Shown: positions 2,736-25,232, counted from the first letter of the stretch. The stretch is DNA of 64,000 bases from an uncultured Clostridia bacterium (GCA_947623945.1 CANQHU010000001.1:15705-79704); one strand, 5' to 3'. Numbers and translations: made by a program. Notes: generated by a model from the sequence alone, not told the origin.

Positions 2736-2758
2736 AATAAATCTCCTTTTTCCAATCA

Positions 2759-3013: not shown

Positions 3014-3042
3014 TGTTTAATACCTTCCTTTCTTATCTGTTA

Positions 3043-3699: not shown

Positions 3700-3724
3700 T
3701 GTTTGATACCTTCCTTTCTTATTT

Positions 3725-5536: not shown

Positions 5537-5575
5537 AGGGTAAACTTCCTTTCTTAAAATCATTGCATATTCTTA

Positions 5576-6634: not shown

Positions 6635-6673
6635 ATTGGATTTCTTCCTTCTTAAAATCATTGCATATTCTTA

Positions 6674-8086: not shown

Positions 8087-8158
8087 ATTTGTGACCATCC
8101 TTTCTATTTTTACATGAAATAATTATACCATAGTTTCTTTCCACTGAAAATGCAGTTG

Positions 8159-9214: not shown

Positions 9215-9230
9215 TTTTCTCTTCCTTTCT

Positions 9231-9257
9231 GAAAATGGGAGGAATAGTTCCTCCCAT
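9231..9257 (-). terminator. Hairpin ATGGGAGGAA-tag-TTCCTCCCAT + U run between the 579-aa gene and nrnA
   Basis: A perfect 10-bp stem read directly, followed on the minus strand by TTTTC. It sits ~20 nt upstream of the nrnA start. Confidence 0.45.
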
Positions 9258-9330
9258 TAGTGATTGGTTTCCTCTTCTTCCGAATGTATGCTTAGGTAAA
9301 CGGTATAACCGAATTCCGTGTTACGATTTC

Positions 9331-11070: not shown

Positions 11071-11079
11071 CTTGCTTTC

Positions 11080-11703
11080 CTACCTTTCTGGTCCTGCCAC
11101 TGTCAAATCTGCTATATCGGTATCCGATAAGTGAAGAAGTTCATTTGCCCGTTCTGTCGCCAACTCGGCAAACTGCGGAATCGTATTTTCCAAATAATTG
11201 CATAAAATCTGCGTATGCTGCCGTGTCGTTTCCGCATCAAAATGCTGTCTTGCTTCCTCTTCTACCGCTTCTTTGATATGGTACTGCTTTCCCACGCCAT
11301 AGTCAATTTCATCGACTCGTTCTAACAAAGTGAATAATTCTTTGGGTGTCAGTTGGTCAAAAACCGTGTAGACCGATTCCGGTATCAAATGCTTTGTATC
11401 CACCCGAATCGGCGTTTCTTCTCCAATGCGGTCACCATATACAGCAAACAGCCTATCCGTTTCTATCTCTGCAAGGTCTAACCCATAATTCGTTTCCTGC
11501 TCATATTCTATATCCGATAACAAACCGGACTGATAAAATGCCCGCATCCATTCTGCACCGGATAAGCGTCCGGAAACGGATTCTCCTTCTTCCCGGCGAT
11601 AACACACCATATGCAGGTCATTTTGTCTGGCAATTAAGGGAACCGTCTGTTCCTGTCCAGACCCATCTTGATAAGTCATTGGGTTTCGATTTGATGTTTG
11701 CAT
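11080..11703 (-). CDS. Hypothetical protein (207 aa), short paralog of the N-terminal region of the 579/682-aa family; acidic tail
   Basis: MRAFYQSGLLSDIEYEQE resembles the shared N-terminal block. Tail LHLSDTDIADLTVAGPER. SD ggaggaataaaATG. Confidence 0.65.
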   Translation of the reverse strand: MQTSNRNPMTYQDGSGQEQTVPLIARQNDLHMVCYRREEGESVSGRLSGAEWMRAFYQSGLLSDIEYEQETNYGLDLAEIETDRLFAVYGDRIGEETPIRVDTKHLIPESVYTVFDQLTPKELFTLLERVDEIDYGVGKQYHIKEAVEEEARQHFDAETTRQHTQILCNYLENTIPQFAELATERANELLHLSDTDIADLTVAGPER

Positions 11704-11779
11704 TTTATTCCTCCTTTCCCATACTACTACGATTCCCTTACGAATAGGAGAAATGTTTCCTATTCGTAAGGGAAGAATG

Positions 11780-13828
11780 TTACTGCTTTAAGGTTTCTTC
11801 TTCCGATAAGTCCTCAATATCGGAATCGGCAACATCATACAATATGTTTGGTCCCGGTTCCGGGAATGGGTCCAGAAGCCAGTTGTCTGGACCATCTTCT
11901 TCCCCCGGTAATGGACGCGGACCCGGAAGTGATGATGGTTTTGGACCACTTTCTGGACCATCTTCTTCTCCCGGTGATGGACTTGGACCACCTTCCGGGC
12001 CATTCTCTCCTCCCGGTGATGGACTTGGACCATTATCCGGGCCATTGTCCGGTTTATCATCTTTTCCCGGAAATTCCGGAAATGTTGGCCAGTCTCTTTC
12101 ATCTGGCGATAAGGAATGCCCATCAGACCCATAATCTCCATACCATGGTCGTGAATCATCCGGGCCAAACAAGCCCGCTATATCTTCATCCGTTAAATCT
12201 AAGTCTGTTGGTTTCTTCTGCCGTTCCTCATCCATATAGTAAAACCGGTCTAACAACTGTTCCGTCGTCATGGTTTGAAAGTCCTGATAAGAGACGGCAT
12301 AGGTTTCCACACAGTTGCGATATTTCCAAAATTTCTGCTTATCATTTAAGCTGTCTCGAAGAGACCAATCTGTCACTAATATCTCCGGAGTCACAGAATA
12401 AAAGATGCCATTTTCTTTGGTGATGTCCTGTTCCTTTTTATAAACATTTCCAGAAATGTTCCATGCTGCAAAATCATATGGGTCCGGAACTATCTGATGC
12501 ATAATGACATAGGCTCGTACCAAATCCGGGTCAGACGCCAATAAGATATCTTTTGTGGGAGTATCTTTGATACACAGCTTTGGAATCGTAACGCCTTCCA
12601 CTTCCGGCACCGGCATATCATTTCGCTCCAAATGGACAAAATCCTCTTCGATATAATGATTGGCTTTTATCATCGCAGACGCGCGAGGGCCAAAGTTGAT
12701 AATCTCTTTATCCAAGGCGTTTAGCAGATAATCATAACGATGCGGCGCTTTATAATCCAGCGGTTTTCCGGATGTAATGCATTTTCGGTATACTTCCTGC
12801 TGCTTTTCATTGGAAAAGAACGAATGGCCGCATTTCGTTTCGTCCGTAATATAGGTAAACAGCTCACTTGCGGATATCTTATGGAAATCGTCCCGAATGT
12901 CGTCTGTTATCGTCGATTCCTGATGCACTGTGACGCCATAACGCTCTATCTTTGGAGAATTCATGGCAATCAGCACATGAGAGGCCGGATACTCACTCTT
13001 CGGCCGTTTGACAGAAAAGCCGCTTTGCTCCATCCATTTTGCCGTCTGTTCCGCTTCCTGCCAGCCGCGTTCCATGCCGTCTAATTTGTCAAGTACTTTC
13101 CATTGGTTTTTCATTTTCGGCGATACCTCGGCGTCCTGAAAGTGAATAAAGGCTTTCGCATCTTCTAAATAGGTCTCCATCCGCTCGGCAAAATCATAAT
13201 TCGGAGAAGTATTCATTAACAGATAAATAAATTGTTCCCTGCTTTCCGACTGTAACGCCATATCGTGCAAATCGGTGCTGTGGATTTTTATTTCTTTCTG
13301 CTCCCATGTTTCCATCGGATTATTTTCGATAATACGGTCATCCACGCTCCACCGGGATTGGTCACGATTGTAATACATCGGAGCCAAATCCGGATGCTTT
13401 TCACAAAAATCAGCCAGCCGTTCGGATGGGAACGACATCAATACGGCCATGGTCTCATCGGGAATGTCCCATTTGTTTACATCCACTAAAAAGGGATGCT
13501 CCGGACTGATATTCGGGGCCACATACTTGTCAAACAATTCATCGGTAGAAATCCCTTCCCGGAAATCGGGGCTGGAGACTAAGGTTTTATAGTCGATGTA
13601 ATCCGACTGATAAATCAATCGCGCCAGCTCTTTGGGGCCCATCATTTGAGAAAGCTCCTCTTTCAGATTGGCCGCATCCCCCGTCAAATCCGTATATTCT
13701 GCCGTTTTACGGTTGCCCTTGGCCCACGGATGTTTTTCTCCGTAGCCAAGGTGAAGCGCGTGCCGCTCTTTGGAATTTAAGTCTTCTTGTGCAAACAGCC
13801 GTTTAGCTGCATCAACATCACTTACCAT
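11780..13828 (-). CDS. Hypothetical protein (682 aa), paralog of 9331-11070, with a Pro/Gly-rich insertion flanked by two copies of the acidic motif
   Basis: ORF track. Has an internal DLDLTDEDIAGL, then ~110 aa of PG-rich low complexity (GPDNGPSPSPGGENGPEGGPSPSPGEEDGPESGP), then the terminal YDVADSDIEDLSEEETLKQ. Confidence 0.7.
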   Translation of the reverse strand: MVSDVDAAKRLFAQEDLNSKERHALHLGYGEKHPWAKGNRKTAEYTDLTGDAANLKEELSQMMGPKELARLIYQSDYIDYKTLVSSPDFREGISTDELFDKYVAPNISPEHPFLVDVNKWDIPDETMAVLMSFPSERLADFCEKHPDLAPMYYNRDQSRWSVDDRIIENNPMETWEQKEIKIHSTDLHDMALQSESREQFIYLLMNTSPNYDFAERMETYLEDAKAFIHFQDAEVSPKMKNQWKVLDKLDGMERGWQEAEQTAKWMEQSGFSVKRPKSEYPASHVLIAMNSPKIERYGVTVHQESTITDDIRDDFHKISASELFTYITDETKCGHSFFSNEKQQEVYRKCITSGKPLDYKAPHRYDYLLNALDKEIINFGPRASAMIKANHYIEEDFVHLERNDMPVPEVEGVTIPKLCIKDTPTKDILLASDPDLVRAYVIMHQIVPDPYDFAAWNISGNVYKKEQDITKENGIFYSVTPEILVTDWSLRDSLNDKQKFWKYRNCVETYAVSYQDFQTMTTEQLLDRFYYMDEERQKKPTDLDLTDEDIAGLFGPDDSRPWYGDYGSDGHSLSPDERDWPTFPEFPGKDDKPDNGPDNGPSPSPGGENGPEGGPSPSPGEEDGPESGPKPSSLPGPRPLPGEEDGPDNWLLDPFPEPGPNILYDVADSDIEDLSEEETLKQ

Positions 13829-13842
13829 AGCTTATCCTCCCC

Positions 13843-15288
13843 TTACAAAGTCTCTTCAGCCGATTCCGTAATTTCATCCAAATCGCCATCGCCTAATGAA
13901 TACGGATTCTGCTTTTCCATCGTCATATGTGCATAATCGGCATACCGCTCGGTAACATCGGACAGCCGGTAGGTGTTGCTTACCCAGTCAAAGGAAATCA
14001 TCTCTCCATCTCCCAAGTCTACAAACTCATCATCTTCGTCATCCCAATCGTCCCATGTGGTATAAGCAAATTGCTGCTGCTCAAAGCTCTCGCCAATCCC
14101 ATCGGAATTCTGACCCTCAATCCAATTAGAAATTTTATAAAGCTCATAATCATCTAACGGCTCATTTGCCACTAACAGGATGTCGCCCTCGTAACCGTTG
14201 TCATTCAATATCCATTCAATATTGGCCACTTTATCTTTTATCTCTGGCAACGCCTCGGTCAAAAACTTAGTCATTGGCGGCTCTGTCAAATATTCTTTGG
14301 CGGCTTCTACATCATTCACCGTACCGGTTAAGCTGAAGTGTGTGCCGTATACCTTCGTTGTATCCTGATTCTCGTCCATATCCAAGGTATCATCTAAGGA
14401 ATATTCCTGCACATTCCACTGGAACCAGCCATAATCCTCTAAATGCGCCTGTAAGAACTGCGTCAAATCAGACTGGAGCTCTCTATCTGTCAGCTCCCGA
14501 TGAGCGACAACCGTAACAACATTAAACTCATCCCCGTCACAAGTCCATGTGACATCGGCAATATCCCGTTTTAAAGCCGGATTTTGATTGAATTCTTTGA
14601 ACCGCTCCGTCATGGTATCGGTATTCTGATTGATAAAATCATTTTCCGTATCCGTATTATAATAATTGAACTGCGTTGTATATACATAGAGCTTTTCTTC
14701 CGGCATCTGCTGGTGAGTCAACTGATTTTCCTCGACATCCACAGCCAGAGAATAAGAGATAACCTTAAATTTTCCGTTCGACCAATCGCTCAAATAGCCC
14801 TTGGTCATCATATCTTCTGTCATCGGATACTTTGCTGCAAATTCTTTGTTCAAGTATCCAATCTGATGCTCCTGCCCATCCGTCTGTTCCACATATACGG
14901 CAATCGCATTGGGGTCCACCGGATTTGTCGGTTCCGGCACGAGATGAAAGTCCATCTCATAAGTTGTCTTCTTATCCGTCTTTCCAATTTCGTCTTTGAC
15001 AAAAGAAGACGGGTCGCTGTCACGAAAAGTAATCCCAACGACCTTCATTTCCGGCACCGTGGCAGCCGCAAAATGATGCACCAGCGTATAGAACTGCTTC
15101 TCACTCATGGCATAATCCTTTGCCTGAAAACCTCTTGCCATCTCTTCGACCGGGAACTTTCGCCGGTTTCCCTCTTCATCATAATTGAGTACAGTAGCGT
15201 CTGGAAACTCCAAAATTCTATCCACCAGCTCCCGTGGCGTCAACTGTTTTAATTCGTCCCGCTTTTCATTGACTAATTTTTTTCGCAT
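13843..15288 (-). CDS. HIRAN-domain protein (481 aa) with acidic tail
   Basis: ORF track 13843-15294 (TTG). ATG M3 has SD aaagggga. The HIRAN-like block is VVGITFRD...FHLVPEPTNPVDPNAIAVYVEQTDGQEHQIGYLNKEFAAKY. Tail YSLGDGDLDEITESAEETL. Confidence 0.6.
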   Translation of the reverse strand: MRKKLVNEKRDELKQLTPRELVDRILEFPDATVLNYDEEGNRRKFPVEEMARGFQAKDYAMSEKQFYTLVHHFAAATVPEMKVVGITFRDSDPSSFVKDEIGKTDKKTTYEMDFHLVPEPTNPVDPNAIAVYVEQTDGQEHQIGYLNKEFAAKYPMTEDMMTKGYLSDWSNGKFKVISYSLAVDVEENQLTHQQMPEEKLYVYTTQFNYYNTDTENDFINQNTDTMTERFKEFNQNPALKRDIADVTWTCDGDEFNVVTVVAHRELTDRELQSDLTQFLQAHLEDYGWFQWNVQEYSLDDTLDMDENQDTTKVYGTHFSLTGTVNDVEAAKEYLTEPPMTKFLTEALPEIKDKVANIEWILNDNGYEGDILLVANEPLDDYELYKISNWIEGQNSDGIGESFEQQQFAYTTWDDWDDEDDEFVDLGDGEMISFDWVSNTYRLSDVTERYADYAHMTMEKQNPYSLGDGDLDEITESAEETL

Positions 15289-15477
15289 AATCAATTTCCC
15301 CTTTCTAATTTATTACTATTTGTATTCTATCATACTTTAACAAAATCTGCTATCTGCTTGTCACTCAAAAAAAGACCGGAGGAAACCACTCCCCCGGCCA
15401 AAACCGAAAAGACTCTGTATTCCATTTAGGAATTCATTGTCCACATTATCATATCATGAAATACTTGAAAAAGCAAC

Positions 15478-15852
15478 CTACAGTGCCAAGCCGTCTGCTT
15501 CTAAAGAAAAGTTCAAATCGTCGTCGGTTAATCCCTGCTCCTCCTGTTCCTCTTCTACATTCCATTCCCCTTTGGCTGCTACGCCTGCATGGAATTCTGC
15601 AAATTGAGATGCGACAAAGCCAGAAAGCGCCAGCTTATCCCGCTGTCCCAATGGCTCTTCGGTAGCAATCCGCACCATATTGAACTTATCCGGGTTGGGG
15701 TCATTTTCATTGTAAAACCAATCCATCTCCGTGATGTGTTTTCCGGTTTCCGGATACTGCTCGACCATCCTGTCCAATAAATCATCGGACTCTATGGCAG
15801 TAACCATAGCTTCCGGCAAGGTTCGATTAAAAGTATATCCATAAATAAACAT
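15478..15852 (-). CDS. Small acidic protein (124 aa) with tail LTDDDLNFSLEADGLAL
   Basis: ORF track 15478-16005. Start moved to MFIYGYTFNRT, 7 nt after SD gggagg. It resembles the repeated modules in the C-terminal half of the HIRAN protein (W...V...EPL...EL pattern). Confidence 0.55.
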   Translation of the reverse strand: MFIYGYTFNRTLPEAMVTAIESDDLLDRMVEQYPETGKHITEMDWFYNENDPNPDKFNMVRIATEEPLGQRDKLALSGFVASQFAEFHAGVAAKGEWNVEEEQEEQGLTDDDLNFSLEADGLAL

Positions 15853-15974
15853 ATTCATTCCTCCCTTTGTCGTTGTTGTCCTCATTGTAACACAAAGTAA
15901 GAGCCACTTCCACTGAATTGTCACTTGTGTTATAATAATTTCAAAGGAGACATTTGATAAGGAGGGGAAACCAT

Positions 15975-16238
15975 ATGGCAAAGAACGCACGCTTAAATAT
16001 TGCAATTATGCCAAGCACGAAAGACCGGTTAGTACGATTTTGCAAGGAAAAAGATATCAGTATGGGCGATGTCGTCGACGACGCGCTAAAGAATTTCTTT
16101 GAACGGTTAGACCGGTCCAATTCGGCGCCCGATTTGGTGTTAGACCGTATCAATCAATTGACGCTATCGGTTATGCAGGCCAATTTGACACTCGGTCAAA
16201 TTAAAGATTATATGGAAAGCGAGAACAATAATGGATGA
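15975..16238 (+). CDS. Ribbon-helix-helix (CopG/Arc/MetJ-type) DNA-binding protein (87 aa)
   Basis: ORF track 15954-16238. ATG M8 follows SD aaggagggg. MAKNARLNIAIMPSTKDRLVRFCKEKDISMGDVVDDALKNFFE has a typical RHH beta-strand plus two helices. Confidence 0.6.
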   Translation: MAKNARLNIAIMPSTKDRLVRFCKEKDISMGDVVDDALKNFFERLDRSNSAPDLVLDRINQLTLSVMQANLTLGQIKDYMESENNNG

Positions 16239-16979: not shown

Positions 16980-17348
16980 CTAACACGCTTTGCGTCTTCT
17001 GTCAATACGATACTCGGATTGCGGATACGCTATCAGTAGAAAATTTTTTCGGATTTTAATCGTAAACGCCGGTTCCCGATAGCCATACTCACCCGAAGTA
17101 AAAATTCCCGGCTTTCCAAAAAATTCAGACAACCATTCTATATAATCGGATTCCTGCCAACCCGGGCAGCGAATCGTAAAACTTAACAGCTTATCCCGCT
17201 CAAAATAAGCAGATAAGAAACAGGAGATACCAAAGCAGGAAATCTCTGCTTTTGATATCCATAAATCATACAGCGGAGAAACCGTTTTATCAAATTCTGT
17301 CGTCCTCTCTTCCAACATTCGTTTTATTGTAGCTTGTTCAAAGTCCAT
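16980..17348 (-). CDS. Hypothetical protein (122 aa), last gene of the apparatus operon
   Basis: ORF track only. Confidence 0.45.
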   Translation of the reverse strand: MDFEQATIKRMLEERTTEFDKTVSPLYDLWISKAEISCFGISCFLSAYFERDKLLSFTIRCPGWQESDYIEWLSEFFGKPGIFTSGEYGYREPAFTIKIRKNFLLIAYPQSEYRIDRRRKAC

Positions 17349-17365
17349 TTTCTCATTCGTGCTTT

Positions 17366-18319
17366 CTAAATTTTGTGTTCATCAAATAATTTGCAAAACA
17401 ATTTTACTAATAAGGTTACCCGAAATTCTGGTGATACCTTACTGTTTAAGGTGCGATTGGCCAATTCTGTCGTCAAAGTATGTGGAATTTTAAATTGCAG
17501 TTCACAATACTCCGTGACCTCTCGTAAATCTTTAAATGTCTGAGCCAATAACTGCGTCGACCGGGCGTCCTGCCCTGCGGTCTCCGGCGGAGGCGTCGGT
17601 GCCGGTGGTTCTTCGTAATTGTCATATCCCGGCTCTTCATAATCATCGTATCCCGATTCTTCATAAGCATTGTATCCCGGTTCTTCATAATCATCGTAGC
17701 CGGGTTCTTCATAAGCATCATATCCCGGTTCTTCATAATTATCATACCCTTCATAATCCGACTCGGGTGGTTCCTCAATAAATTCGTCCGGCGGCGGCCC
17801 TTCTGCAAAGGTTTCTTCTGCCGGTGGAGCTTCTGTAGGCGCTGCCTGCGAAGCAGGAGGCGTTTCCGGCGGTTTTTGCATCTTATCTGCCATCTGTTCA
17901 ATCACACCGATGGGAATATCAATATCCTTTTCCGGCGGCGTCAAATCCTTAACCAAATCCCGGAGAGTGCCTTTTCCCTGCACCGTACCCTGAAATCCGC
18001 CATCGGTAAAGACCATACGAGTAACCTGCAAATCAATTAGCCCAAAGGCCGGGTCGAACAATTTATCCAAAGGTGGAAATAAAATTAATCGGGGTGGTTC
18101 ATGAATATCAGAACACATGGCATAAATTGTATGCTTTCCAATTCCAATTAAGGCGAATCCGGATAAGGCTTGGTCCATTTCCGTATCGACCTCAAATCCA
18201 ATAATTGAGTTTTCCTCCCGTAAGTACGCCAATTCTTCTACCACCATTAACCGACGGAACAAAGGATTCTTCGCCGACGGGGCCAATTCTTTAATTTGTG
18301 TTTGAATCTCTACTCCCAT
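17366..18319 (-). CDS. Hypothetical protein (317 aa) with six tandem YEEPGYD(A/D/N) acidic repeats
   Basis: ORF track. SD aaggagattgttATG. 24-nt DNA repeats at ~17620-17760. Confidence 0.6.
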   Translation of the reverse strand: MGVEIQTQIKELAPSAKNPLFRRLMVVEELAYLREENSIIGFEVDTEMDQALSGFALIGIGKHTIYAMCSDIHEPPRLILFPPLDKLFDPAFGLIDLQVTRMVFTDGGFQGTVQGKGTLRDLVKDLTPPEKDIDIPIGVIEQMADKMQKPPETPPASQAAPTEAPPAEETFAEGPPPDEFIEEPPESDYEGYDNYEEPGYDAYEEPGYDDYEEPGYNAYEESGYDDYEEPGYDNYEEPPAPTPPPETAGQDARSTQLLAQTFKDLREVTEYCELQFKIPHTLTTELANRTLNSKVSPEFRVTLLVKLFCKLFDEHKI

Positions 18320-18329: not shown

Positions 18330-18863
18330 TTACTGCTTCGTTTCCGTGGTAGCGGCAGCCGCTCCTGCTAATTCATTGCGGAGCTGTTCCTCCCTTGCTT
18401 GACTGGCAGCCAGTTCTTCCTTACTGGCGTTTAATTCGTTCGTCGTTCCTTCCAGCATGGACTTCGCATTGCTTAACTCCTGCTCTAACATCGCCGCTTG
18501 GTTTTTTGCCTCAATCAACTGCTGTTCCAATGCTGCCTTCTCTTCCTGCAAGGTCTGCACATCGGTCGGCGCTTCTGCTTCCGTCACTTCTTCGGTTGCC
18601 TCTGTTGTCGGCTGTTCTTTCTTTACATTGTCCGCCACAAATTTTGCATTGACGGCAAACAGGACAAATCCGCCCAATATCACGGCGATAATAATTGCGC
18701 TGACTACCTTCGATTTTTGGTGAATGTACTCTTCCTGTTCCTCTTCTGTCTGCTCAGAAACCGGTTGTTCCGGGGCCGGTTTTTTTGCCTTTGGTTTCTT
18801 TTCCGGTTTCTTTGCCGGTTGTTCGGGCTCCACGCCCATAATTTCATTCGCATCAAATTTCAT
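18330..18863 (-). CDS. Bitopic membrane protein (177 aa): Lys-rich N-terminus, one TM, T/E-rich linker, coiled coil
   Basis: ORF track 18330-18926. Start moved to M22 (MKFDANEIMG), which has SD aaaggaga and avoids overlap with the upstream gene. TM VVSAIIIAVILGGFVLFAV. Confidence 0.6.
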   Translation of the reverse strand: MKFDANEIMGVEPEQPAKKPEKKPKAKKPAPEQPVSEQTEEEQEEYIHQKSKVVSAIIIAVILGGFVLFAVNAKFVADNVKKEQPTTEATEEVTEAEAPTDVQTLQEEKAALEQQLIEAKNQAAMLEQELSNAKSMLEGTTNELNASKEELAASQAREEQLRNELAGAAAATTETKQ

Positions 18864-18882
18864 TCGATGTGGTCTCCTTTCT

Positions 18883-19590
18883 CTAATTTGCCAGTGTGTA
18901 AGGCCGAATATTGGTAATGGCGCCATCTGCGGTTATCTGATATAATACCATAACCTTTCCGTTGCCGCTTCGTCCTTTGACATTCGAGCTGATATAGCAA
19001 AGCGCCGCATAGGAGGTGACGCCGTCAGACTCCTGTAACACATAGGGTGTAAAATCCTTTAATTTCATATTCAAATTACCAAAGGCTTCCTGCGTCACTT
19101 CCGGCATAAATTGAATGAAGACATCACTGGCCGGGTCTGCCCCATAGGTCGAAATTAAGGTATTCCGATTGTTGATGTAAGTTGTATAATCGCTCCAGTT
19201 TAACAAGGCGTTTAACATCGGTTCTGCCGTTTCTTTGGCTATCATTTTGGCGTCTTTCGGCTCTTCCGTAGCCGGCGCCTCGGTATTTTCTGCCACTGTT
19301 GTCCCTTCCGTTGCCGTCTGTCCTTCCTCTGTCGTTTCCATATTGACCGGCTCGACATCATCATAGTTCTTTAACTCTTTGTCTAACTTGGCAATTTCCT
19401 TCTTCTGTTCCGCAATGTGATTCAATACATTCTGTCTGGCAAATAACATATGCACAACCGATACGAGGATGCCAATTACAAAGACGATGAATAATAACCG
19501 GTTTCTCGTTGCCGTCGGCAGATTGATGCGGGACGAGGATGAGTAAAAGGTTAAGTCTTCATCCTGTTCTTCTTTGTTTTCAATAATCAT
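18883..19590 (-). CDS. Bitopic membrane protein (235 aa), T/E-rich linker + globular ectodomain (VirB8/TcpC-like position)
   Basis: ORF track. TM LLFIVFVIGILVSVVHMLF. SD ggaggaaacgaaATG. Confidence 0.55.
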   Translation of the reverse strand: MIIENKEEQDEDLTFYSSSSRINLPTATRNRLLFIVFVIGILVSVVHMLFARQNVLNHIAEQKKEIAKLDKELKNYDDVEPVNMETTEEGQTATEGTTVAENTEAPATEEPKDAKMIAKETAEPMLNALLNWSDYTTYINNRNTLISTYGADPASDVFIQFMPEVTQEAFGNLNMKLKDFTPYVLQESDGVTSYAALCYISSNVKGRSGNGKVMVLYQITADGAITNIRPYTLAN

Positions 19591-19608
19591 TTCGTTTCCT
19601 CCTTATTC

Positions 19609-20406
19609 TCACTGTTGCTGCTGTTCCTGTCTCAATGCCTCTCTGGCTTCATAAATACTGGACATATCCTCAGTGGTTTCCGTATCTTCATCTCCGGTAT
19701 CTACTTGTTTGATTTGTTCTGCCATATCGTTAATGGCTTCCACATTCTTATCCACTTCGTCCCCATTTGGACCACTTGCCGCCACGGATTGCATCCCTGC
19801 CGATGTCATCGCATACACCATATTAGAAAAACACTGATTTGCCGGAACAAAGGTGCCTGTCGCATATCCCAGCAATTGTCCGGAATCCGGGTTCGTACAA
19901 AGCCAAAGGCCGGACATTCCGTCGGCGTAAAAGGCCCAATTCCCGGGAATCGAACCATAATACCATGCCACTCTTGCCGTTTTCGATTCGGAAGAAAACA
20001 AAGCATCTAAGGCGCTTACATTGGCAGCAAACTTTTCCGTGTCATTGACATCCAGCCCAAACTTCTCATTTTGCAGGGCGGCGACCTGATTGCCTTTTTC
20101 TAACGCGCTGGCCTTATCGGCCTCTTCGTCACGGGCTTCCGTGGTCGGCGTTTCCGTTCCTTCCGTTGTTTCTTCGGCTGTCAATACTTCCTCTTCGGTT
20201 AAGGGATTGCTGGTGACGCCGGATTGTGCTTCAATTAACTGTTGATAGTTTTTGGCATTTTCCAAATCCGTTTCCCGTTCAGAGATTGCTACTTCATTGT
20301 GGGTTTCCTTTGCCCGTAATTGATTCAAGGTTGCCATGCATCGCAAAAATACAAATATAAATACAATGCCGCCGGCAATCGCCAAGCGTTTCCATACTTT
20401 TTCCAT
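19609..20406 (-). CDS. Bitopic membrane protein (265 aa), T/E-rich linker + globular ectodomain
   Basis: ORF track 19609-20436 (GTG). ATG M11 (MEKVWKRLAIAGGIVFIFVFL) has SD aaaggaga. Confidence 0.55.
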   Translation of the reverse strand: MEKVWKRLAIAGGIVFIFVFLRCMATLNQLRAKETHNEVAISERETDLENAKNYQQLIEAQSGVTSNPLTEEEVLTAEETTEGTETPTTEARDEEADKASALEKGNQVAALQNEKFGLDVNDTEKFAANVSALDALFSSESKTARVAWYYGSIPGNWAFYADGMSGLWLCTNPDSGQLLGYATGTFVPANQCFSNMVYAMTSAGMQSVAASGPNGDEVDKNVEAINDMAEQIKQVDTGDEDTETTEDMSSIYEAREALRQEQQQQ

Positions 20407-20419: not shown

Positions 20420-22177
20420 CTACTTTGTGGCCACACCGGCCCCTACATCTTTATATTTATCCGAATTATCGGGTTTAATGCATCGGTATACATCATAGAC
20501 TTCACCGCCAGAAGTCAAATAAATGGTAACATCATTTCCACAGCCCGGAGAACGCCCACCCGGATAGCTGCGTCCTGCAATGGAACCACTCACAGTATCT
20601 GAATCCACATCCGCCGCCGCTCCATGAATGGATTGAATGGTTTCTTTTCCTACAAAAATAACGGTATGTCCGTCTCGGACAAATACATCACCCGGCTGTA
20701 AGTCTTCATATTTTACCGTTTGTGAGGTTCCTAACTTTTGCCATTTGGGGTCATCACCAAGACATAATCCTTTTAAATATTCATGTTGTTTGTTTGTATT
20801 ACCATTTGGATATCCAATGTCTGTACCGCTCCAAACAATCGCACACGCGACACTTCTGTCACATGACCGATAGGTTCTATCACCCGGAAAAACGCCATCA
20901 TGGACGGCCTTATATAATTCGGTACCATCATTATTGATTCCATCTGCTTTCTTTGCATACGCATAAGAAACAGCGGCTCTTGCGGCGCTACTATTATCCA
21001 CACTATTATTTTTTACACCACATTTTTTTGCAGCCTGCGCGCTTCCGGTATTTTCAATGGCCAGTCCAATCGAATCTGCAAGCGCCAAAATCGAATTGAC
21101 ATAGGTTTCATCGACCGACCAAGTGGTAATTTTATCATACCAGTCTTGTGCCTCTGTAAAACGGTTATGTTCTCCATCAAATCCATATTTTGTATTCCCT
21201 TCATATCCGGCTGCAAAATGATAGGCAGCATCTTTTACATTCGTTGTACATTGATGAGTTGTCTCAAAATTTCCTGTTGCACAGGCGGCTACAGAGCAAG
21301 TACCTGATTTCCACTTTGAAAAGAAATTTGGTCGATATTTTGCATCACTTAACATATAAGCCATCTGAAAATCAAAATCATACCAATTTTGTCCAACTCC
21401 GTTTGCAACTTCCTGTAAGGTGATTCCGGCAGGGCCTGTCCATTGCACCAATCCAAGACCGCAACAGTAAACTCCATCTTTTTGATACGCACTTTGGGTG
21501 ATGGATTTATTAGCTCTCGCATATGCCGGAAATACCGTTCCTAATGTGAAGGCACTTAAATCCTGCAATGCGGCTGATTTCTTAGGACCAGACACCGTGT
21601 ATGCTTCTGCATTATCTGAAATTGTTTCAATCGCTGTTGAATCGACATGACTTTCGATTGCTATATTTCCCAGCATTCCGGCAATTTGTTCATCAGTTAA
21701 TCCATAGATTTTAAAGACCGAATAAATTTTTTTCGCATTTTCTTCCATGGCACCTTCTGTCGCTCCCGTTGCCCCCACATCTTTATTCACGCTGGGACAA
21801 TCGGATAACAACAAAGCGACCTCATCATCCGATTCCGTGGAAAACCATGCGGAAGTATCTGCATCTTTATCGCTACAGGAATGCAGCAACAATAACGCCA
21901 ATAAGACGGCCAAAATCACCCAGCCGACCGGGTTGGATACCAAAAACTTTAAGATAGCGAGCAATCCCTTTCCTAAGGCTTTGAATGCCGCTTTTGCTCC
22001 TGCCTTTAAGCCCTGTTTAACCAATCGTTTCAAATGATTGATACCGGTGGCTTCCATCAGAGCATTTTTCAGTCCCCGTTTGGCTTTTTTCTCCGCTTGG
22101 TCTATCATTTGATAGCCGTTATCCTGTTCGGCCATTTTATCCAGTTCATTTTTGTTATAATCATCTAATCGTGCCAT
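20420..22177 (-). CDS. Membrane-anchored bifunctional cell-wall hydrolase: lysozyme-like (phage tail lysozyme type) + NlpC/P60-CHAP-like peptidase; VirB1/TcpG/CwlT analogue
   Basis: TM GWVILAVLLALLLL. The lysozyme block is IAGMLGNIAIESHVD...CCGLGLVQWTGP. The C-terminal Cys...His block is SCDRSVACAIVWSG...LQPGDVFVRDGHTVIFVG. Confidence 0.75.
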   Translation of the reverse strand: MARLDDYNKNELDKMAEQDNGYQMIDQAEKKAKRGLKNALMEATGINHLKRLVKQGLKAGAKAAFKALGKGLLAILKFLVSNPVGWVILAVLLALLLLHSCSDKDADTSAWFSTESDDEVALLLSDCPSVNKDVGATGATEGAMEENAKKIYSVFKIYGLTDEQIAGMLGNIAIESHVDSTAIETISDNAEAYTVSGPKKSAALQDLSAFTLGTVFPAYARANKSITQSAYQKDGVYCCGLGLVQWTGPAGITLQEVANGVGQNWYDFDFQMAYMLSDAKYRPNFFSKWKSGTCSVAACATGNFETTHQCTTNVKDAAYHFAAGYEGNTKYGFDGEHNRFTEAQDWYDKITTWSVDETYVNSILALADSIGLAIENTGSAQAAKKCGVKNNSVDNSSAARAAVSYAYAKKADGINNDGTELYKAVHDGVFPGDRTYRSCDRSVACAIVWSGTDIGYPNGNTNKQHEYLKGLCLGDDPKWQKLGTSQTVKYEDLQPGDVFVRDGHTVIFVGKETIQSIHGAAADVDSDTVSGSIAGRSYPGGRSPGCGNDVTIYLTSGGEVYDVYRCIKPDNSDKYKDVGAGVATK

Positions 22178-22183
22178 AATCCT

Positions 22184-24199
22184 TTATACTCCTACGATAT
22201 ATACCGACTCCCCGTCTATTTCGCTTCGGAATTTATTATACCCCTGCATGGCCAAATTGGCAATATCTTGTGTAAAAGTCGACAGGGGCGTTGTCACTGG
22301 CAGATATAAGCCCCGGTTAAACAACGGTTTTCCGATTTTGTCCGCCAACTGCTTTAAGACGGAATCCACGACGGCAATGTCATAGCATTCCGTAATGGCA
22401 ATCGAGGCATTTAACGGGTCCGCAATCTCCTTATATTTGAAACGGGGTTTGCCTTTCACATAGATGAGCAGCGGGACTTCCGCCGTGGCATAGGTCATAT
22501 AGTGCGCTAACTCCTGTACGACGATGTTCTTGACATTTCTCTTTGCGTCACGGGCGCCGCCTCGTTCGGTATCCGTGCTGGTTCTATCCTTTACAATATA
22601 CGGAATCACATCATCAGAAACAATGATACGCCGCTCATCGGTCTCTGCCACCTCAATGACATCCTTTAAGGTTCGTCTTGCAATTTTCTCCAATGCTTCG
22701 CTGGGGAGCGGGTGGAACGGAACGATAGCATCCAGACGGCCAAGTACCGCGGTCTCAAAGACATCGGAATCCGCTAACGCCTTATACACCAGCTCCGAAT
22801 CGGCTTTGGCGTCCAGACTTTGATGTTTGGCCATGTTCTGATATACTTCCGAGCCTAAGTTCGTTGTCAGATTGATAATCGCACCGCAAAAGGAGGCCAC
22901 CCGGTCCGGGTTTTCCGAATCCGTCAAGCGGGCGTCGTCTAATACCTGCAATAAGATATTCATCGCTGCCCGGGAGGACTTATCAACCTCATCAATCAAG
23001 ATATAGGCATTCGGCGTCGACCAAACGGCCCGGAACAGGGCATCAGCAAATTCGCTTGCCGTCTCCTTATTGGAATATCTTGACATATCAAATCGCTTTA
23101 GTGGAAGACGCATGGTCTCTGAAATAATCTTCGCCAGCTCGGTTTTACCGGTACCGGTGGTTCCAGTGCTGATAAAGGAGCATTTCGGCCGGTCAATGTC
23201 CCCAAAGCCGCAGGCCGCCATTTCAAGGAGATGCACGACCACGGAAATCGCATTATCCTGATGATAAAGTCTGGTCTGTAATGCAGAAATCACATCGGTC
23301 ACATTGACCTCATTATCAATATCAATCCCATGCGTTCGCCGGACGACCCGCTTTAATAACGGACGGCTGATGACCTTTTCCGTGGCCAGTCCCAGCTCCT
23401 TTGGTGAAAAGAACTCCTTGCAGAGCGTGCCGTCTTTCACATACTCCCGTTTGACGGTATCGCCAATAACGGAATTTAACAAATCAATGCTGGCACGAGG
23501 CTGGGCATTGCTTAAAAGAATCCGCTTGGATTCCATATAAATATCCTCTAAGATATTTTCATCTAACAATTCATACACCCCATGCTGTTTGGCCCGGTTT
23601 TCCAAAATATGAATAACCGCCTTTTTCGGCAATTCGGTCAATTTTATCTGTAAGAAACGCTGGTCTAACGCCCGGTTCTTTGCAATGGAATCATTATACT
23701 CCTGAAAGGTGGTCGCCGCTATCAGACGAAATCCGTTGATAGCGCTTTTCTCCAGACGGGGCTTTAAGGACTCCATTAGGCTTGGAGAAATCTCCGCAAT
23801 TTTGTGAAACTCATCAATGAATAAGACAACAATCACATCATGGTCTTTGGAATATTGCCCGGCCTCATCCAACAGTTGATTAAATCCGGTGAGCAGGGCG
23901 TTATCCCGGTCGGTGTCTTTGTCAATCAATCGCTCCGGATTAACCTCTAATACCAGATAATAAGGAATGGAATCCTTATCATAGGCAAAGCCCTGCACAT
24001 AGGCGGTTTTACCGGTACCGGGCTCGGCCAAGAGCACGATGTTTGCCTTTTCCGGATTTCGTAATCCCCTTCTCAATTCTCCGATATCCCGTCCGATGAT
24101 ATCGGCCGGAGGCGGCGGCATAATATTGGCGCCTTTATATAACATAGGATAATTTTTACTTTCGTTCAAAAATGTCGTTGCGTGTTTGGCTGTTCGCAT
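22184..24199 (-). CDS. Clp/Hsp100-type double AAA+ ATPase (671 aa)
   Basis: ORF track 22184-24283. Start moved to M29 (MRTAKHA), which has SD aaaggagagg. D1: IIGRD...VLLAEPGTGKTAYVQGFA, Walker B VLFIDEFH, LIAATTFQEY...ALDQRF. D2: FISTGTTGTGKTELAKII, YILIDEVDK, LQVLDDARLTD. Collinear with ClpA/ClpB/ClpV. Confidence 0.8.
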   Translation of the reverse strand: MRTAKHATTFLNESKNYPMLYKGANIMPPPPADIIGRDIGELRRGLRNPEKANIVLLAEPGTGKTAYVQGFAYDKDSIPYYLVLEVNPERLIDKDTDRDNALLTGFNQLLDEAGQYSKDHDVIVVLFIDEFHKIAEISPSLMESLKPRLEKSAINGFRLIAATTFQEYNDSIAKNRALDQRFLQIKLTELPKKAVIHILENRAKQHGVYELLDENILEDIYMESKRILLSNAQPRASIDLLNSVIGDTVKREYVKDGTLCKEFFSPKELGLATEKVISRPLLKRVVRRTHGIDIDNEVNVTDVISALQTRLYHQDNAISVVVHLLEMAACGFGDIDRPKCSFISTGTTGTGKTELAKIISETMRLPLKRFDMSRYSNKETASEFADALFRAVWSTPNAYILIDEVDKSSRAAMNILLQVLDDARLTDSENPDRVASFCGAIINLTTNLGSEVYQNMAKHQSLDAKADSELVYKALADSDVFETAVLGRLDAIVPFHPLPSEALEKIARRTLKDVIEVAETDERRIIVSDDVIPYIVKDRTSTDTERGGARDAKRNVKNIVVQELAHYMTYATAEVPLLIYVKGKPRFKYKEIADPLNASIAITECYDIAVVDSVLKQLADKIGKPLFNRGLYLPVTTPLSTFTQDIANLAMQGYNKFRSEIDGESVYIVGV

Positions 24200-24223: not shown

Positions 24224-24274
24224 ATTATAACAGGAAATGACTGTCTTGAAAAGACACTCTTTTTTTACTATAAT
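24224..24274. promoter_or_regulatory. Back-to-back promoters with overlapping -35 elements (AAA+ operon leftward, zinc-ribbon genes rightward)
   Basis: Plus strand: TTGAAA 24246-24251, 17 nt, TATAAT 24269-24274. Minus strand: TTTTCA (24247-24252), 17 nt, TGtTATAAT (24224-24232). Confidence 0.45.
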
Positions 24275-24624: not shown

Positions 24625-24625
24625 T

Positions 24626-25225: not shown

Positions 25226-25232
25226 GACAAAG

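What the first reader, a model, noticed from the sequence alone, without database searches (positions are those of the whole stretch)
22184..24199. ClpA/ClpB/ClpV-like double AAA+ ATPase encoded at the head of the hydrolase/bitopic-protein operon
Both AAA modules are intact: GTGKTAYV/FIDEFH and GTGKTELA/LIDEVDK, with the collinear signature LQVLDDARLTD. The gene is immediately followed (7-nt gap) by the VirB1-like hydrolase gene. Hsp100-family ATPases thread or unfold substrates, and ClpV serves the Gram-negative T6SS. I am not aware of one being an integral part of a Gram-positive T4SS-like locus. It is the obvious candidate receptor or unfoldase for the acidic C-terminal tails.
Basis: partly seen in the sequence, partly recalled or inferred. 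Interest (0 to 1): 0.75.

Follow-up and report, generated by a model that had tools for sequence, protein, structure and literature searches.

The report
Clp-like motor of plasmid-transfer machinery

Summary
Window 22184-24199 (-) encodes a 671-aa double AAA+ protein with every catalytic motif intact. It starts its own operon, and the lysozyme-type hydrolase gene follows after 6 nt (not 7).

It is not ClpA, ClpB, ClpC or ClpV:
- It has no N-domain, no M-domain and no ClpP-docking loop.
- A 12-residue deletion, present in 66 of 66 diverse relatives, removes the D2 tyrosine pore loop.
- The D1 pore loop is a variable, non-aromatic stretch.

It belongs to a large unnamed family (at least 150 clusters at 50% identity, many carrying inteins at the P-loops). 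The family is confined to conjugation modules with a MobL relaxase, a giant coupling protein (T4CP), a lysozyme and a VirB4-like protein that has lost its Walker A.

In 72,556 plasmids, all 12 that carry the giant T4CP also carry this ATPase. They come from Streptomyces, Gordonia, Rhodococcus, Staphylococcus and Lactococcus. None is typed "conjugative", although pGKT2 does transfer.

Being an integral part of a Gram-positive T4SS is therefore supported. The proposed role as tail receptor or threading unfoldase is untested and weakened by the anatomy. My best reading is a dedicated cytoplasmic motor or remodeller working with the T4CP and the inactive VirB4-like protein.

The parts
22184..24199 (-). 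Gene for the 671-aa (75 kDa) double AAA+ Hsp100-like ATPase
   Evidence: ORF and translation. Pfam AAA_2 and AAA. NCBIfam ClpA 208 bits against a cutoff of 993. PDB ClpB at E 6e-39. AF2 pLDDT 92.7 with Foldseek hits to ClpA/C/B.
24005..24028 (-). D1 Walker A (AEPGTGKT, residues 58-65)
   Evidence: G61, G63 and K64 are invariant in the 66-member family alignment.
23804..23830 (-). D1 Walker B (VVLFIDEFH, residues 124-132)
   Evidence: D129, E130 and H132 are invariant.
23882..23941 (-). D1 pore-loop position (residues 87-106, NPERLIDKDTDRDNALLTGF). It replaces the ClpB AGAKYRGEFEE loop (Tyr251), is acidic, has no conserved aromatic residue and varies across the family.
   Evidence: Alignments. 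ClpB KYRG at residue 250.
23132..23164 (-). D2 Walker A (GTTGTGKTELA, residues 346-356). This is also where an intein is inserted in many relatives.
   Evidence: Intein-bearing relatives split at about residues 350-354.
23021..23056 (-). Site of the family-wide 12-residue deletion (SEFADA|LFRAVW, residues 382-393) that removes the D2 pore loop (ClpB GAPPGYVGYEEGG, Tyr653). The model shows one continuous helix, residues 378-394.
   Evidence: (66 of 66 members).
22979..23005 (-). D2 Walker B (YILIDEVDK, residues 399-407)
   Evidence: D403 and E404 are nearly invariant and K407 is invariant.
22919..22951 (-). Pre-sensor-1 hairpin signature LQVLDDARLTD (residues 417-427), retained from ClpA/B-type D2 modules
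22187..22381 (-). C-terminal extension (residues 607-671, alpha-alpha-beta-beta, pLDDT about 95) that ClpA and ClpB lack. It is present in the close subfamily, partly present in the Lactococcus and Staphylococcus relatives, and absent from the Gordonia/Erysipelotrichaceae branch.
   Evidence: No sequence match in the PDB.
24224..24252 (-). Promoter-like site (TTTTCA, 17 nt spacer, TG-extended TATAAT) directly upstream of the ATPase gene
   Evidence: Consensus match only.
20420..22177 (-). 585-aa cell-wall hydrolase with an N-terminal TM helix and a Phage_lysozyme2 domain. It starts 6 nt after the ATPase stop, with its ribosome-binding site inside the ATPase 3' end.
   Evidence: The adjacency is conserved in relatives whose ATPase is 71-75% identical.
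18330..20406 (-). Three single-pass (bitopic) membrane protein genes: 19609-20406, 18883-19590 and 18330-18863
   Evidence: TM prediction, gene calls. Two of the three are conserved in L003 and L004.
16980..18319 (-). Last genes of the operon: a 317-aa acidic repeat protein (conserved at about 45% identity in L003/L004) and a 122-aa protein. A terminator-like hairpin follows at 16852-16879.
30171..32243 (-). 690-aa divergent VirB4-like protein without Walker A (GNDTxNxTxTL aligns to GNAGMGKSTLL) and without a Walker B DE pair
   Evidence: (hhalign probability 89%, E 2e-6, 349 columns).
26471..30160 (-). 1229-aa protein with 7 predicted TM helices and a long disordered C-terminal region. It is a candidate VirB6-type channel subunit.
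   Evidence: Weak similarity to the Lactococcus 1048-aa protein. The role is inferred.
2256..16005 (-). Run of genes whose products end in a shared LS[DE]xD[LI]xxL-type tail. They include BspA-type LRR proteins, a DHH/DHHA1 phosphoesterase, an RnlB-like protein, a HIRAN protein and unknowns. The run lies between the hydrolase operon and the T4CP.
   Evidence: The T4CP lies downstream, beyond window position 1.

Best explanation
**What it is.** The gene encodes the dedicated Hsp100-derived ATPase subunit of a divergent Gram-positive conjugative type IV secretion system. That system combines:
- a MobL-type relaxase;
- a giant coupling protein (T4CP) of about 1100-1400 aa;
- a lysozyme-type wall hydrolase;
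- large polytopic and single-pass membrane proteins;
- a VirB4-like protein that has lost its own ATP-binding loop.

**Shown.**
- The protein has two AAA+ modules, and every residue needed to bind and hydrolyse ATP is conserved in both.
- It lacks the N-domain, the M-domain, the ClpP-docking loop and both tyrosine pore loops. It therefore cannot work as ClpA, ClpB, ClpC or ClpV do.
- It is found only inside such transfer modules.

**Inferred.**
- It forms a two-tier hexamer at the cytoplasmic face of the machine.
- It acts together with the T4CP and the inactive VirB4-like platform.
- It uses ATP to remodel, load or release transfer substrates (the relaxase-DNA complex, and possibly the tail-bearing proteins) or to drive assembly of the channel. 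It would supply motor activity that the degenerate VirB4-like protein can no longer give.
- It would engage its targets by a non-canonical route, such as the retained pre-sensor-1 hairpin, the D2-small domain or the C-terminal extension, rather than by tyrosine-loop threading.
For: **Identity and fold:**

**Catalytic residues.** These are invariant or nearly so in 66 members that share 27-79% identity with the query: both Walker A and B motifs, R181, T445/N447, R488 and R550. Inteins are inserted at both P-loops in many relatives, which marks these sites as indispensable.

**Losses:**
- No N-domain or M-domain.
- D2 pore loop deleted in 66 of 66 members.
- D1 loop non-aromatic and variable.
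- IG[FL] present in only 4 of 66, consistent with chance.

**System context in the window:**
- A T4CP lies on the same strand 13 kb beyond window position 1.
- A VirB4-like protein lacks Walker A and B.
- The hydrolase is translationally coupled to the ATPase.

**Co-occurrence:**
- Giant-T4CP orthologues occur in only 12 of 72,556 plasmids, and all 12 carry the ATPase.
- The best matches of the Walker-A-less VirB4-like protein are the same 13 plasmids.
- The one ATPase-bearing plasmid without the T4CP is an IS905-bounded deletion derivative.
- Independent metagenomic lineages show MobL-ATPase-X-T4CP or MobL-X-ATPase arrangements.

**Other ATPases and transfer:**
- In the complete plasmid pAYP1020, the only ORF of at least 150 aa with a canonical Walker A is this ATPase. 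Its only VirB4 homologue lacks the P-loop.
- pGKT2, which carries the module, transfers between actinobacteria (Jung et al. 2011, as cited in PMC5640721).
- None of the T4CP-bearing plasmids is typed 'conjugative' by MOB-suite.
Against: - No experiment bears on this protein or any relative.
- Hexamer formation and docking to the T4CP or the VirB4-like protein are inferred, not modelled.
- With both pore loops gone, the physical way it would act on a substrate is unknown.
- Only about 81 kb of the 181.8-kb element could be read. An intact VirB4 elsewhere on it cannot be excluded.
- In Ligilactobacillus salivarius megaplasmids, a related Clp-like gene sits in a pLS20-type cluster that also has a VirB4 with an intact Walker A. 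The ATPase is therefore not always paired with a dead VirB4.
- Gene order next to the ATPase differs between lineages. The hydrolase follows it here, while MobL or the T4CP are its neighbours elsewhere. No single partner is indicated.
- The Walker A of the pAYP1020 T4CP is slightly deviant but present. The T4CP may supply all the energy needed.
Confidence: 0.5

Rival explanations
1. The ATPase is the receptor and unfoldase for the acidic C-terminal tails. It would recognise the LSDxDIxxL-type tails of the cargo proteins and unfold or thread them for export through the apparatus.
For: - At least 10 proteins encoded between the ATPase operon and the T4CP share a C-terminal LS[DE]xD[LI]xxL motif.
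- Conjugative T4SS substrates must be unfolded to pass (Trokter and Waksman 2018, PMC5826034, listed), and no unfoldase is known.
- The close subfamily has an extra, confidently folded C-terminal domain of unknown function that could bind peptides.
- In pAYP1020 and the Erysipelotrichaceae contig, the gene just upstream of the ATPase encodes a protein with a strongly acidic C-terminus.
Against: - Both canonical tyrosine pore loops are missing in every family member.
- In this subfamily the D1 pore-loop position is itself acidic (DKDTDRD), which is unfavourable for binding acidic tails in the pore.
- There is no N-domain, the usual substrate or adaptor site of Hsp100 proteins.
- The tail motif was not found in the readable flanks of distant plasmids that carry the ATPase.
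- The C-terminal extension is absent from whole branches of the family.
- In characterised T4SSs, C-terminal signals are read by the coupling protein or its adaptors, for example DotL-DotM for Glu-rich signals in Legionella (established knowledge). Here the T4CP carries about 500-700 extra residues.
Confidence: 0.2
2. This is a ClpV-like recycling model. The ATPase does not touch substrates. It would disassemble or recycle a structural part of the apparatus, such as the coiled-coil single-pass proteins or the hydrolase complex encoded in the same operon, after each transfer event.
For: - In this lineage it is co-transcribed and translationally coupled with the hydrolase and three single-pass membrane proteins. 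That block is conserved in relatives whose ATPase is 71-75% identical.
- The precedent is ClpV (TssH), which recycles the contracted T6SS sheath (established knowledge).
Against: - ClpV needs its N-domain to bind VipB and its pore loops to thread it. Both are absent here.
- The ATPase-hydrolase adjacency is not kept in the distant lineages, where MobL and the T4CP are the neighbours.
Confidence: 0.12
3. This is an ordinary Clp model. The gene would be a plasmid-borne stress chaperone or a ClpP partner (like ClpL, ClpK, ClpG or ClpC) carried as cargo and unrelated to transfer. This is how some database records name its relatives ('ATP-dependent Clp protease ATP-binding subunit').
For: - Source annotations of relatives use that name.
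- The best NCBIfam hits are ClpA, ClpB and TssH.
Against: - Every score is far below the family cutoffs: ClpA 208 against 993, ClpB 170 against 1232, TssH 144 against 885, ClpG 120 and ClpK 119 against 1900.
- There is no N-domain, M-domain, IGF/IGL loop or pore loop.
- It is strictly confined to transfer modules.
Confidence: 0.03
4. This is a defence model. The protein would be a ClpB-like ATPase of an anti-phage or anti-plasmid system, such as DolB of Dodola.
For: PADLOC DolB matches at 55.7 bits, E 1e-15, over the D2 module only.
Against: The match is a generic AAA+ hit to one module. No partner defence gene is present, and the neighbours are transfer genes.
Confidence: 0.02

Closest known systems
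ClpB/Hsp104 disaggregases (E. coli ClpB; PDB 6qs4, 4d2q)
   Same: - Two AAA+ modules in the same order.
- Walker A and B, sensor-1, arginine fingers, sensor-2 and the D2-small domain.
- The pre-sensor-1 hairpin signature LLQVLDDGRLTD.
- Best sequence matches in the PDB (E 6e-39), with fold TM about 0.67/0.76.
- No ClpP loop.
   Different: - No N-domain.
- No coiled-coil M-domain, the DnaK-coupling element.
- The D1 KYR loop (Tyr251) is not conserved.
- The D2 GYVG loop (Tyr653) is deleted.
- It has an extra C-terminal domain.
- It is encoded only in conjugation modules.
ClpA/ClpC unfoldases of ClpP proteases (PDB 7uiy, 9gi1, 9if4)
   Same: - Top structural matches (Foldseek E about 1e-35).
- The short D1-D2 linker without a long M-domain resembles ClpA.
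- The NCBIfam ClpA model is the best hit and matches in one stretch.
   Different: - No N-domain (the ClpS or MecA site).
- No IGL/IGF ClpP-docking loop (4 of 66 by chance; ClpA has IGL at residue 617).
- No tyrosine pore loops.
ClpV/TssH of type VI secretion
   Same: It is an Hsp100-type ATPase dedicated to a secretion machine rather than to proteostasis.
   Different: - ClpV acts on the sheath, not on substrates, through its N-domain and pore loops. Both are absent here.
- No T6SS genes are present.
- TssH scores 144 bits against a cutoff of 885.
Unnamed 'AAA family ATPase' genes of Gram-positive plasmids. Examples: S. capitis pAYP1020 WP_047797177.1, Gordonia pGKT2 WP_238553847.1, Lactococcus megaplasmids WP_081196191.1, and more distantly L. 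salivarius WP_069469630.1 and E. faecium WP_002352888.1.
   Same: - These are the true relatives, at 26-33% identity and E 1e-42 to 1e-76.
- All are short, with no N-domain or M-domain, and have the same D2 pore-loop deletion.
- They share the neighbourhood of MobL, giant T4CP, lysozyme and VirB4-like genes.
   Different: - None has been studied.
- The window protein belongs to a gut-metagenome subfamily. It has a beta-hairpin insert at residues 248-276 and a C-terminal extension, and it heads a hydrolase operon instead of following MobL.
Canonical T4SS ATPases VirB4, VirD4 (T4CP) and VirB11
   Same: They are cytoplasmic hexameric motors encoded in transfer operons. The ATPase co-occurs with a VirD4-type T4CP and a VirB4 homologue.
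   Different: - They belong to an unrelated ATPase lineage (FtsK/HerA-type and secretion-ATPase folds, against the Hsp100 HCLR clade).
- In this system the VirB4 homologue lacks Walker A and B.
Substrate-recognising accessory factors of other secretion systems: the EccA AAA+ ATPase of ESX/type VII, and the DotL-DotM-IcmSW coupling complex of Legionella. This comparison is from my own knowledge.
   Same: It gives a conceptual precedent for an accessory cytoplasmic factor that reads C-terminal, sometimes acidic, signals.
   Different: EccA is a single CbbX-type AAA+ module with a TPR domain, and DotM is not an ATPase. Neither shows homology to this protein beyond the AAA+ core. This comparison was not tested here.

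Membership tests
Hsp100/Clp class I (double-ring AAA+) superfamily | Two tandem AAA+ modules (a classic-clade D1 plus an HCLR-clade D2 with a pre-sensor-1 hairpin and a D2-small domain) | tested here: met
   Pfam AAA_2 and AAA hits and a weak ClpB_D2-small hit. Collinear alignment to ClpA and ClpB. Foldseek TM 0.66-0.77 to ClpA, ClpC and ClpB protomers.
Hsp100/Clp class I superfamily | Aromatic-hydrophobic pore loops that grip and thread polypeptide (ClpB Tyr251 and Tyr653) | tested here: not met
   The D2 loop is deleted in 66 of 66 family members. The D1 loop is variable and non-aromatic. Reference positions were checked in E. coli ClpB and ClpA.
ClpB/Hsp104 | N-terminal domain plus a coiled-coil M-domain inserted in D1-small | tested here: not met
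   The alignment starts at ClpB residue 180 or so, and the M-domain columns are empty. TIGR03346 scores 169.5 bits against a cutoff of 1232.
ClpA/ClpC/ClpE (ClpP partners) | IG[FL] ClpP-docking loop in D2 | tested here: not met
   Absent in the query and present in only 4 of 66 relatives, at non-aligned positions.
ClpA/ClpC/ClpE (ClpP partners) | N-domain for ClpS, MecA or substrate binding | tested here: not met
   Only about 33 residues precede D1. TIGR02639 scores 208.5 bits against a cutoff of 993.
ClpV/TssH | ClpV-type N-domain that binds the sheath, plus a T6SS gene neighbourhood | tested here: not met
   There is no N-domain. TIGR03345 scores 144 bits against a cutoff of 885. No T6SS families were found among the neighbours.
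Conjugative T4SS module component (Gram-positive, MobL / giant-T4CP type) | Encoded within, and co-inherited with, T4CP, VirB4-like, hydrolase and relaxase genes | tested here: met
   Same-strand operon reaching the T4CP. Co-occurrence in 12 of 12 plasmids. The VirB4-like protein's top matches are the same plasmids. Independent lineages are L017, L018, L020 and L021.
Conjugative T4SS module component | Required for DNA or protein transfer | not testable with these tools
   I found no genetic data for any family member. pGKT2 as a whole is transferable.
Active AAA+ ATPase (both rings) | Walker A Lys, Walker B Asp-Glu, sensor-1, arginine finger and sensor-2 | tested here: met
   Invariant: K64, D129/E130, T164, R181, K352, T445 and R488. 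Nearly invariant: D403/E404, N447 and R550. Enzyme activity itself was not tested.

The most novel reading that the evidence does not exclude
A widespread lineage of Gram-positive conjugation systems has retired the universal T4SS motor. It occurs in Staphylococcus, Lactococcus, Enterococcus-like, actinobacterial and gut Bacillota plasmids. Its VirB4 homologue survives only as a scaffold without a P-loop. An Hsp100-derived double-ring ATPase that has lost its pore loops has been recruited as the obligatory second motor beside a giant coupling protein.

This would be a new T4SS architecture. Standard typing tools score it as non-conjugative. It would also be a new mode of action for an Hsp100 protein, one without tyrosine-loop threading.
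Probability: 0.3. Interest if true: 0.85.

Novelty: new variant of a known kind. Interest (0 to 1): 0.66.

Why it matters
- **A new kind of T4SS ATPase.** VirB4 is treated as the universal signature ATPase of conjugative T4SSs, and no Hsp100-type ATPase is listed among T4SS components in the reviews I could check. A Clp-derived ATPase locked to a transfer module whose VirB4 homologue lacks its ATP site would alter the parts list for Gram-positive conjugation. It would also give a concrete candidate for an open question: what prepares or unfolds relaxases and other protein substrates.
- **Plasmid mobility typing.** Every plasmid with this module is typed 'non-mobilizable' or 'mobilizable' by MOB-suite, although pGKT2 transfers. 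Mobility predictions for staphylococcal, lactococcal, actinobacterial and gut plasmids may therefore be too low.
- **AAA+ mechanism.** An Hsp100 family under strong selection for ATP hydrolysis in both rings, yet lacking both pore loops, is an unusual natural experiment.

Tried and rejected
- **Near-identical DNA.** Megablast of window 15-36 kb against the plasmid and phage collections found nothing.
- **Species-representative genomes.** The scan returned only two loci, one Erysipelotrichaceae family member and one generic Clp. The host is therefore unassigned beyond 'Gram-positive, probably gut Bacillota' (sortase/LPXTG-type genes).
- **First AlphaFold run.** With 29 close homologues it was poor (pLDDT 63.6). 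It was replaced by a run on a 66-member diverse alignment (pLDDT 92.7).
- **Phage origin.** This was considered because of the Phage_lysozyme2 and PHROG hits. I rejected it: phrog_4871 is a generic ClpA-like family, no capsid or terminase genes appear in the 81 kb read, and the operon holds a T4CP.
- **'Hodor' gut megaplasmids** (PMC12934698). The paper does not mention Clp or AAA proteins, and Hodors have a conserved VirB4. Membership could not be tested.
- **pELF-type enterococcal linear plasmids** (PMC13492992). Their tra operon is a different, minimal system with no Clp-like gene.
- **Tail motif in distant plasmids.** I did not find it in the flanks available.
- **C-terminal extension.** No sequence match in the PDB.
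- **PADLOC.** Only a generic AAA+ match.
- **Rfam.** No hit anywhere in the window.
Full report
**1. The observation**

The minus-strand ORF at 22184-24199 encodes 671 aa. The ATG at 24199 has a GGAAAGGAGAGG ribosome-binding site upstream. A TG-extended -10/-35 promoter match sits at 24252-24224.

Pfam finds AAA_2 (E 4.8e-20, residues 337-491) and AAA, plus a weak ClpB_D2-small match. ClpB, ClpC and ClpA chains are the best sequence matches in the PDB, with E down to 6e-39.

The hydrolase gene (20420-22177) starts 6 nt after the ATPase stop, and its ribosome-binding site lies inside the ATPase 3' end. It carries a TM helix and a Phage_lysozyme2 domain.

Terminator-like hairpins lie upstream at 25232-25550, and the next strong one on this strand is at 16852-16879. 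This fits a seven-gene unit: ATPase, hydrolase, three single-pass membrane proteins, a 317-aa acidic repeat protein and a 122-aa protein. The only slip is the gap length, 6 nt rather than 7.

**2. What kind of Clp-like protein it is**

The NCBIfam equivalog models all score far below their cutoffs:

| Model | Score (bits) | Cutoff (bits) |
|---|---|---|
| ClpA | 208 | 993 |
| ClpB | 170 | 1232 |
| TssH/ClpV | 144 | 885 |
| ClpG | 120 | 1900 |
| ClpK | 119 | 1900 |

Alignment with E. coli ClpA and ClpB shows the following:
- The protein begins about 33 residues before D1, so it has no N-domain.
- It has no M-domain.
- Where ClpB has GAPPGYVGYEEGG (Tyr653) and ClpA has the equivalent GYVG loop, there is a clean 12-residue gap.
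- Where ClpB has AGAKYRGEFEE (Tyr251), the query has DKDTDRDNALL.

I verified the reference positions in the E. coli sequences.

In a 66-member alignment spanning 27-79% identity to the query, the D2 segment has the same shortened length in every sequence. The D1 segment is variable and has no conserved aromatic residue. The ClpP-docking IG[FL] tripeptide appears in only 4 of 66 members, at unaligned positions.

The catalytic residues of both rings, in contrast, are invariant or nearly so. These are K64, D129/E130, T164, R181, K352, D403/E404, T445/N447, R488 and R550.

An AlphaFold2 model built on that alignment is confident (pLDDT 92.7, pTM 0.81). It superposes on ClpA, ClpC and ClpB protomers with TM 0.66-0.77. 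In the model one continuous helix (residues 378-394) replaces the helix-pore loop-helix of D2. A small, confidently folded C-terminal extension (607-671) has no sequence match in the PDB.

The motor parts are therefore intact. The parts that known Hsp100 proteins use to choose and thread substrates are gone.

**3. The family**

Close relatives (69-81% identity) are abundant in metagenome assemblies, on contigs of 180-318 kb.

The window's own protein lies on a 181,759-bp contig. That contig was recovered in two ENA assemblies with different start points, which indicates a circular element.

A scan of 1.84 billion representative proteins finds at least 150 clusters at 50% identity with E of 1e-46 or better. 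Typical length is 580-700 aa.

Many members are 880-1445 aa because inteins are inserted at the D1 and/or D2 Walker A. In the searches, their matches to the query split at about residues 62-65 and 342-354. In L004 the D2 intein interrupts the gene at residue 350-352.

No curated family covers these proteins. Sources call them 'AAA family ATPase' or 'ATP-dependent Clp protease ATP-binding subunit'.

**4. The system it belongs to**

*In the window.* On the minus strand, the ATPase is the only protein with a canonical P-loop.

Reading past window position 1 on the same contig shows that the same-strand gene run continues to a 1255-aa coupling protein with T4SS-DNA_transf and TraG-D_C domains.

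Upstream lies a 690-aa protein (30171-32243) that is a remote VirB4 homologue:
- Profile-profile comparison with the pLS20 and L. salivarius VirB4 gives probability 89% and E 2e-6 over 349 columns.
- A metagenomic intermediate bridges the families. It scores 69.7 bits to VirB4, 231 bits to the pAYP1020 704-aa protein and 53 bits to the window protein.
- In the window, pAYP1020, Lactococcus and L020 versions, the Walker A GxxGxGKS is replaced (GNDTxNxTxTL here) and the Walker B DE pair is lost.
- The pGKT2 version also lacks GK[ST], and the E. faecium version has none at the expected Walker A position.

Together with the hydrolase, the single-pass proteins and a 1229-aa protein with seven TM helices, this is a T4SS-like locus of the Gram-positive kind.

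*In other plasmids.*
- Orthologues of the giant T4CP (E of 1e-96 or better) occur in only 12 of 72,556 PLSDB plasmids: 1 Streptomyces, Gordonia pGKT2, 1 Rhodococcus fascians, 5 Staphylococcus and 4 Lactococcus.
- All 12 carry the ATPase family.
- The Walker-A-less VirB4-like protein has its best matches in the same plasmids.
- The one extra ATPase-bearing plasmid, pJM4A, is a deletion derivative cut at an IS905 next to the gene.
- T4CP and ATPase have diverged to a similar degree (24-34% against 26-34% identity), as expected for co-inherited genes.

*In independent metagenomic lineages.*
- MobL(overlapping)-ATPase-662 aa-T4CP plus a lysozyme (L017).
- ATPase-742 aa-T4CP (L018 and L019).
- MobL-247 aa-ATPase-312 aa-VirB4-like (L020).
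- MobL followed four genes later by the ATPase (L021).
- ATPase-775 aa in an Erysipelotrichaceae genome (L013).

In pAYP1020 the order is MobL-180 aa-ATPase. In pGKT2 it is ATPase-866 aa-T4CP.

*More distant relatives.* Members with the same pore-loop deletion sit in the pLS20-type tra cluster of L. salivarius megaplasmids. There they lie between a topoisomerase and the CD1115-type VirD4, alongside a VirB4 with an intact Walker A. Another sits in E. faecium plasmids. pLS20 itself has no such gene annotated in the 50 kb of the plasmid I read, which covers its transfer operon.

*Mobility typing.* MOB-suite types none of the T4CP-bearing plasmids as conjugative. pGKT2 nevertheless moves between Gordonia, Rhodococcus and Nocardia (Jung et al. 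2011, as cited in PMC5640721).

In the complete plasmid pAYP1020, the ATPase is the only ORF of at least 150 aa with a canonical Walker A.

**5. How it most likely works**

*Shown.* It is an Hsp100-fold protein with two catalytically competent AAA+ modules. It has no N-domain, M-domain, ClpP loop or tyrosine pore loops. It is inherited strictly with a MobL / giant-T4CP / VirB4-like / lysozyme transfer module.

*Inferred.* It forms a two-tier hexamer at the cytoplasmic face of that machine. It spends ATP on loading or remodelling transfer substrates, or on assembling the channel. It works with the T4CP and with a VirB4-like platform that can no longer bind ATP. I give this 0.5.

The shared LS[DE]xD[LI]xxL tail on at least 10 proteins between the hydrolase operon and the T4CP is real, and T4SS substrates must unfold to pass (PMC5826034). 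Several points count against it, however:
- The pore loops are lost.
- The D1 loop is acidic.
- There is no N-domain.
- The motif is absent from the flanks I could read in distant plasmids that carry the ATPase.
- The C-terminal extension is patchily distributed.
- The general rule is that the T4CP reads C-terminal signals.

I give it 0.2.

A ClpV-like recycling role for the co-transcribed membrane proteins gets 0.12. An ordinary chaperone or ClpP partner gets 0.03, and a defence ATPase gets 0.02.

**6. Comparison with what is known, and novelty**

By fold and motifs it is a member of the Hsp100 superfamily. It fails the defining tests for ClpA, ClpB, ClpC and ClpV.

I found no paper that lists a Clp- or AAA+-type protein as a T4SS component:
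- Four searches found none.
- A 2025 T4SS nomenclature review has zero occurrences of Clp, AAA+ or Hsp100.
- The Hodor megaplasmid preprint and the pELF conjugation paper do not mention one.

The library does not cover subscription journals, so an earlier mention cannot be excluded.

I rate it a new variant of a known kind: a derived Hsp100 lineage recruited into a divergent conjugation system.

The most novel reading still open is that this lineage has swapped VirB4's motor function for the Clp-derived ATPase. I put its probability at about 0.3.

**7. Limits**

- Everything here is computational.
- About 100 kb of the element could not be read.
- The host is unknown.
- The VirB4 homology of the window's 690-aa protein rests on remote similarity, although several independent comparisons support it.

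Noticed in passing
window 30171-32243 (-): The 690-aa protein is a remote VirB4 homologue in which Walker A (GNDTxNxTxTL in place of GxxGxGKS) and the Walker B DE pair are lost. The same loss appears in homologues from pAYP1020, Lactococcus megaplasmids and a metagenomic lineage. The pGKT2 homologue has no GK[ST] at all. Its best plasmid matches are the same plasmids that carry the Clp-like ATPase.
   Followed up: yes
window 2256-16005 (-) and L011:11263-15026: At least 10 otherwise unrelated proteins end in a shared LS[DE]xD[LI]xxL-type acidic motif 5-30 residues from the C-terminus. They include four or five BspA-type LRR proteins, a DHH/DHHA1 phosphoesterase, an RnlB-antitoxin-like protein, a HIRAN-domain protein and several unknowns. 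All are encoded between the hydrolase operon and the T4CP. This looks like a translocation signal on candidate transferred (anti-defence?) proteins.
   Followed up: partly
Relatives of the ATPase (e.g. L004:10001-12958; P0004, P0006, P0012; P0121-P0264): Many family members carry one to three inteins (LAGLIDADG_3 or Hom_end domains). They are inserted at the D1 and/or D2 Walker A and lengthen the protein to 880-1445 aa.
   Followed up: partly
window 24984-25370: There are four direct copies of a unit of about 57 nt, spaced 103-114 nt apart. Each has a GC-rich hairpin (AAAAAGACCGG-N5-CCGGTCTTTTT, terminator-like on the minus strand) and a TTGACA box. They lie in the non-coding gap between the upstream apparatus genes and the ATPase operon. 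Rfam gives no match, and the function is unknown (stacked terminators, small RNAs or a regulatory or oriT-like array).
   Followed up: partly
window 24301-24943 (+): Two small genes (107 and 105 aa) are transcribed divergently from the ATPase. Each encodes an N-terminal TM helix, a lysine- and glutamate-rich linker and a C-terminal CxxC...CxxC zinc ribbon.
   Followed up: no
whole window; L005 and L006: The same 181,759-bp contig was assembled in two ENA samples (ERZ27249377, ERZ27249368) with permuted start points. This indicates a circular element of about 182 kb. It has sortase and LPXTG-type adhesin genes, so it is probably a megaplasmid of a gut Gram-positive host.
   Followed up: partly
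L011:15152-18919 (about 13 kb beyond window position 1, same strand as the ATPase): A giant coupling protein (1255 aa) has a TRGGKGQ Walker A and 500-700 residues more than ordinary VirD4 proteins. Its orthologues occur in only 12 of 72,556 PLSDB plasmids.
   Followed up: yes
window 17366-18319 (-): A 317-aa protein has a tandem acidic repeat (EEPGYD[DNA]YEEPGY..., about six copies). It is conserved at about 45% identity in elements whose ATPase is 71-75% identical (L003, L004).
   Followed up: no
L012:10665-15245 (just beyond the window's right end) and window 59559-62212: A fused GyrB-GyrA-like type IIA topoisomerase (1526 aa) follows an SNF2-type helicase, an RNase HII and a CPBP/Rce1-like membrane protease. 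pAYP1020 and pGKT2 also encode a topoisomerase, and pAYP1020 also encodes a CPBP protease, near their transfer genes.
   Followed up: no
L015:25831-27660 (L. salivarius megaplasmid) and L025:1957-3906 (E. faecium plasmid): More distant short Clp-like ATPases sit inside tra-type clusters of lactobacillal and enterococcal plasmids, and the L. salivarius protein shows the same D2 pore-loop deletion. The L. salivarius cluster keeps a VirB4 with an intact Walker A.
   Followed up: partly
PLSDB records: All plasmids with this transfer module are typed 'non-mobilizable' or 'mobilizable' by MOB-suite, including the experimentally transferable pGKT2. Current typing schemes probably miss this T4SS type.
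   Followed up: partly
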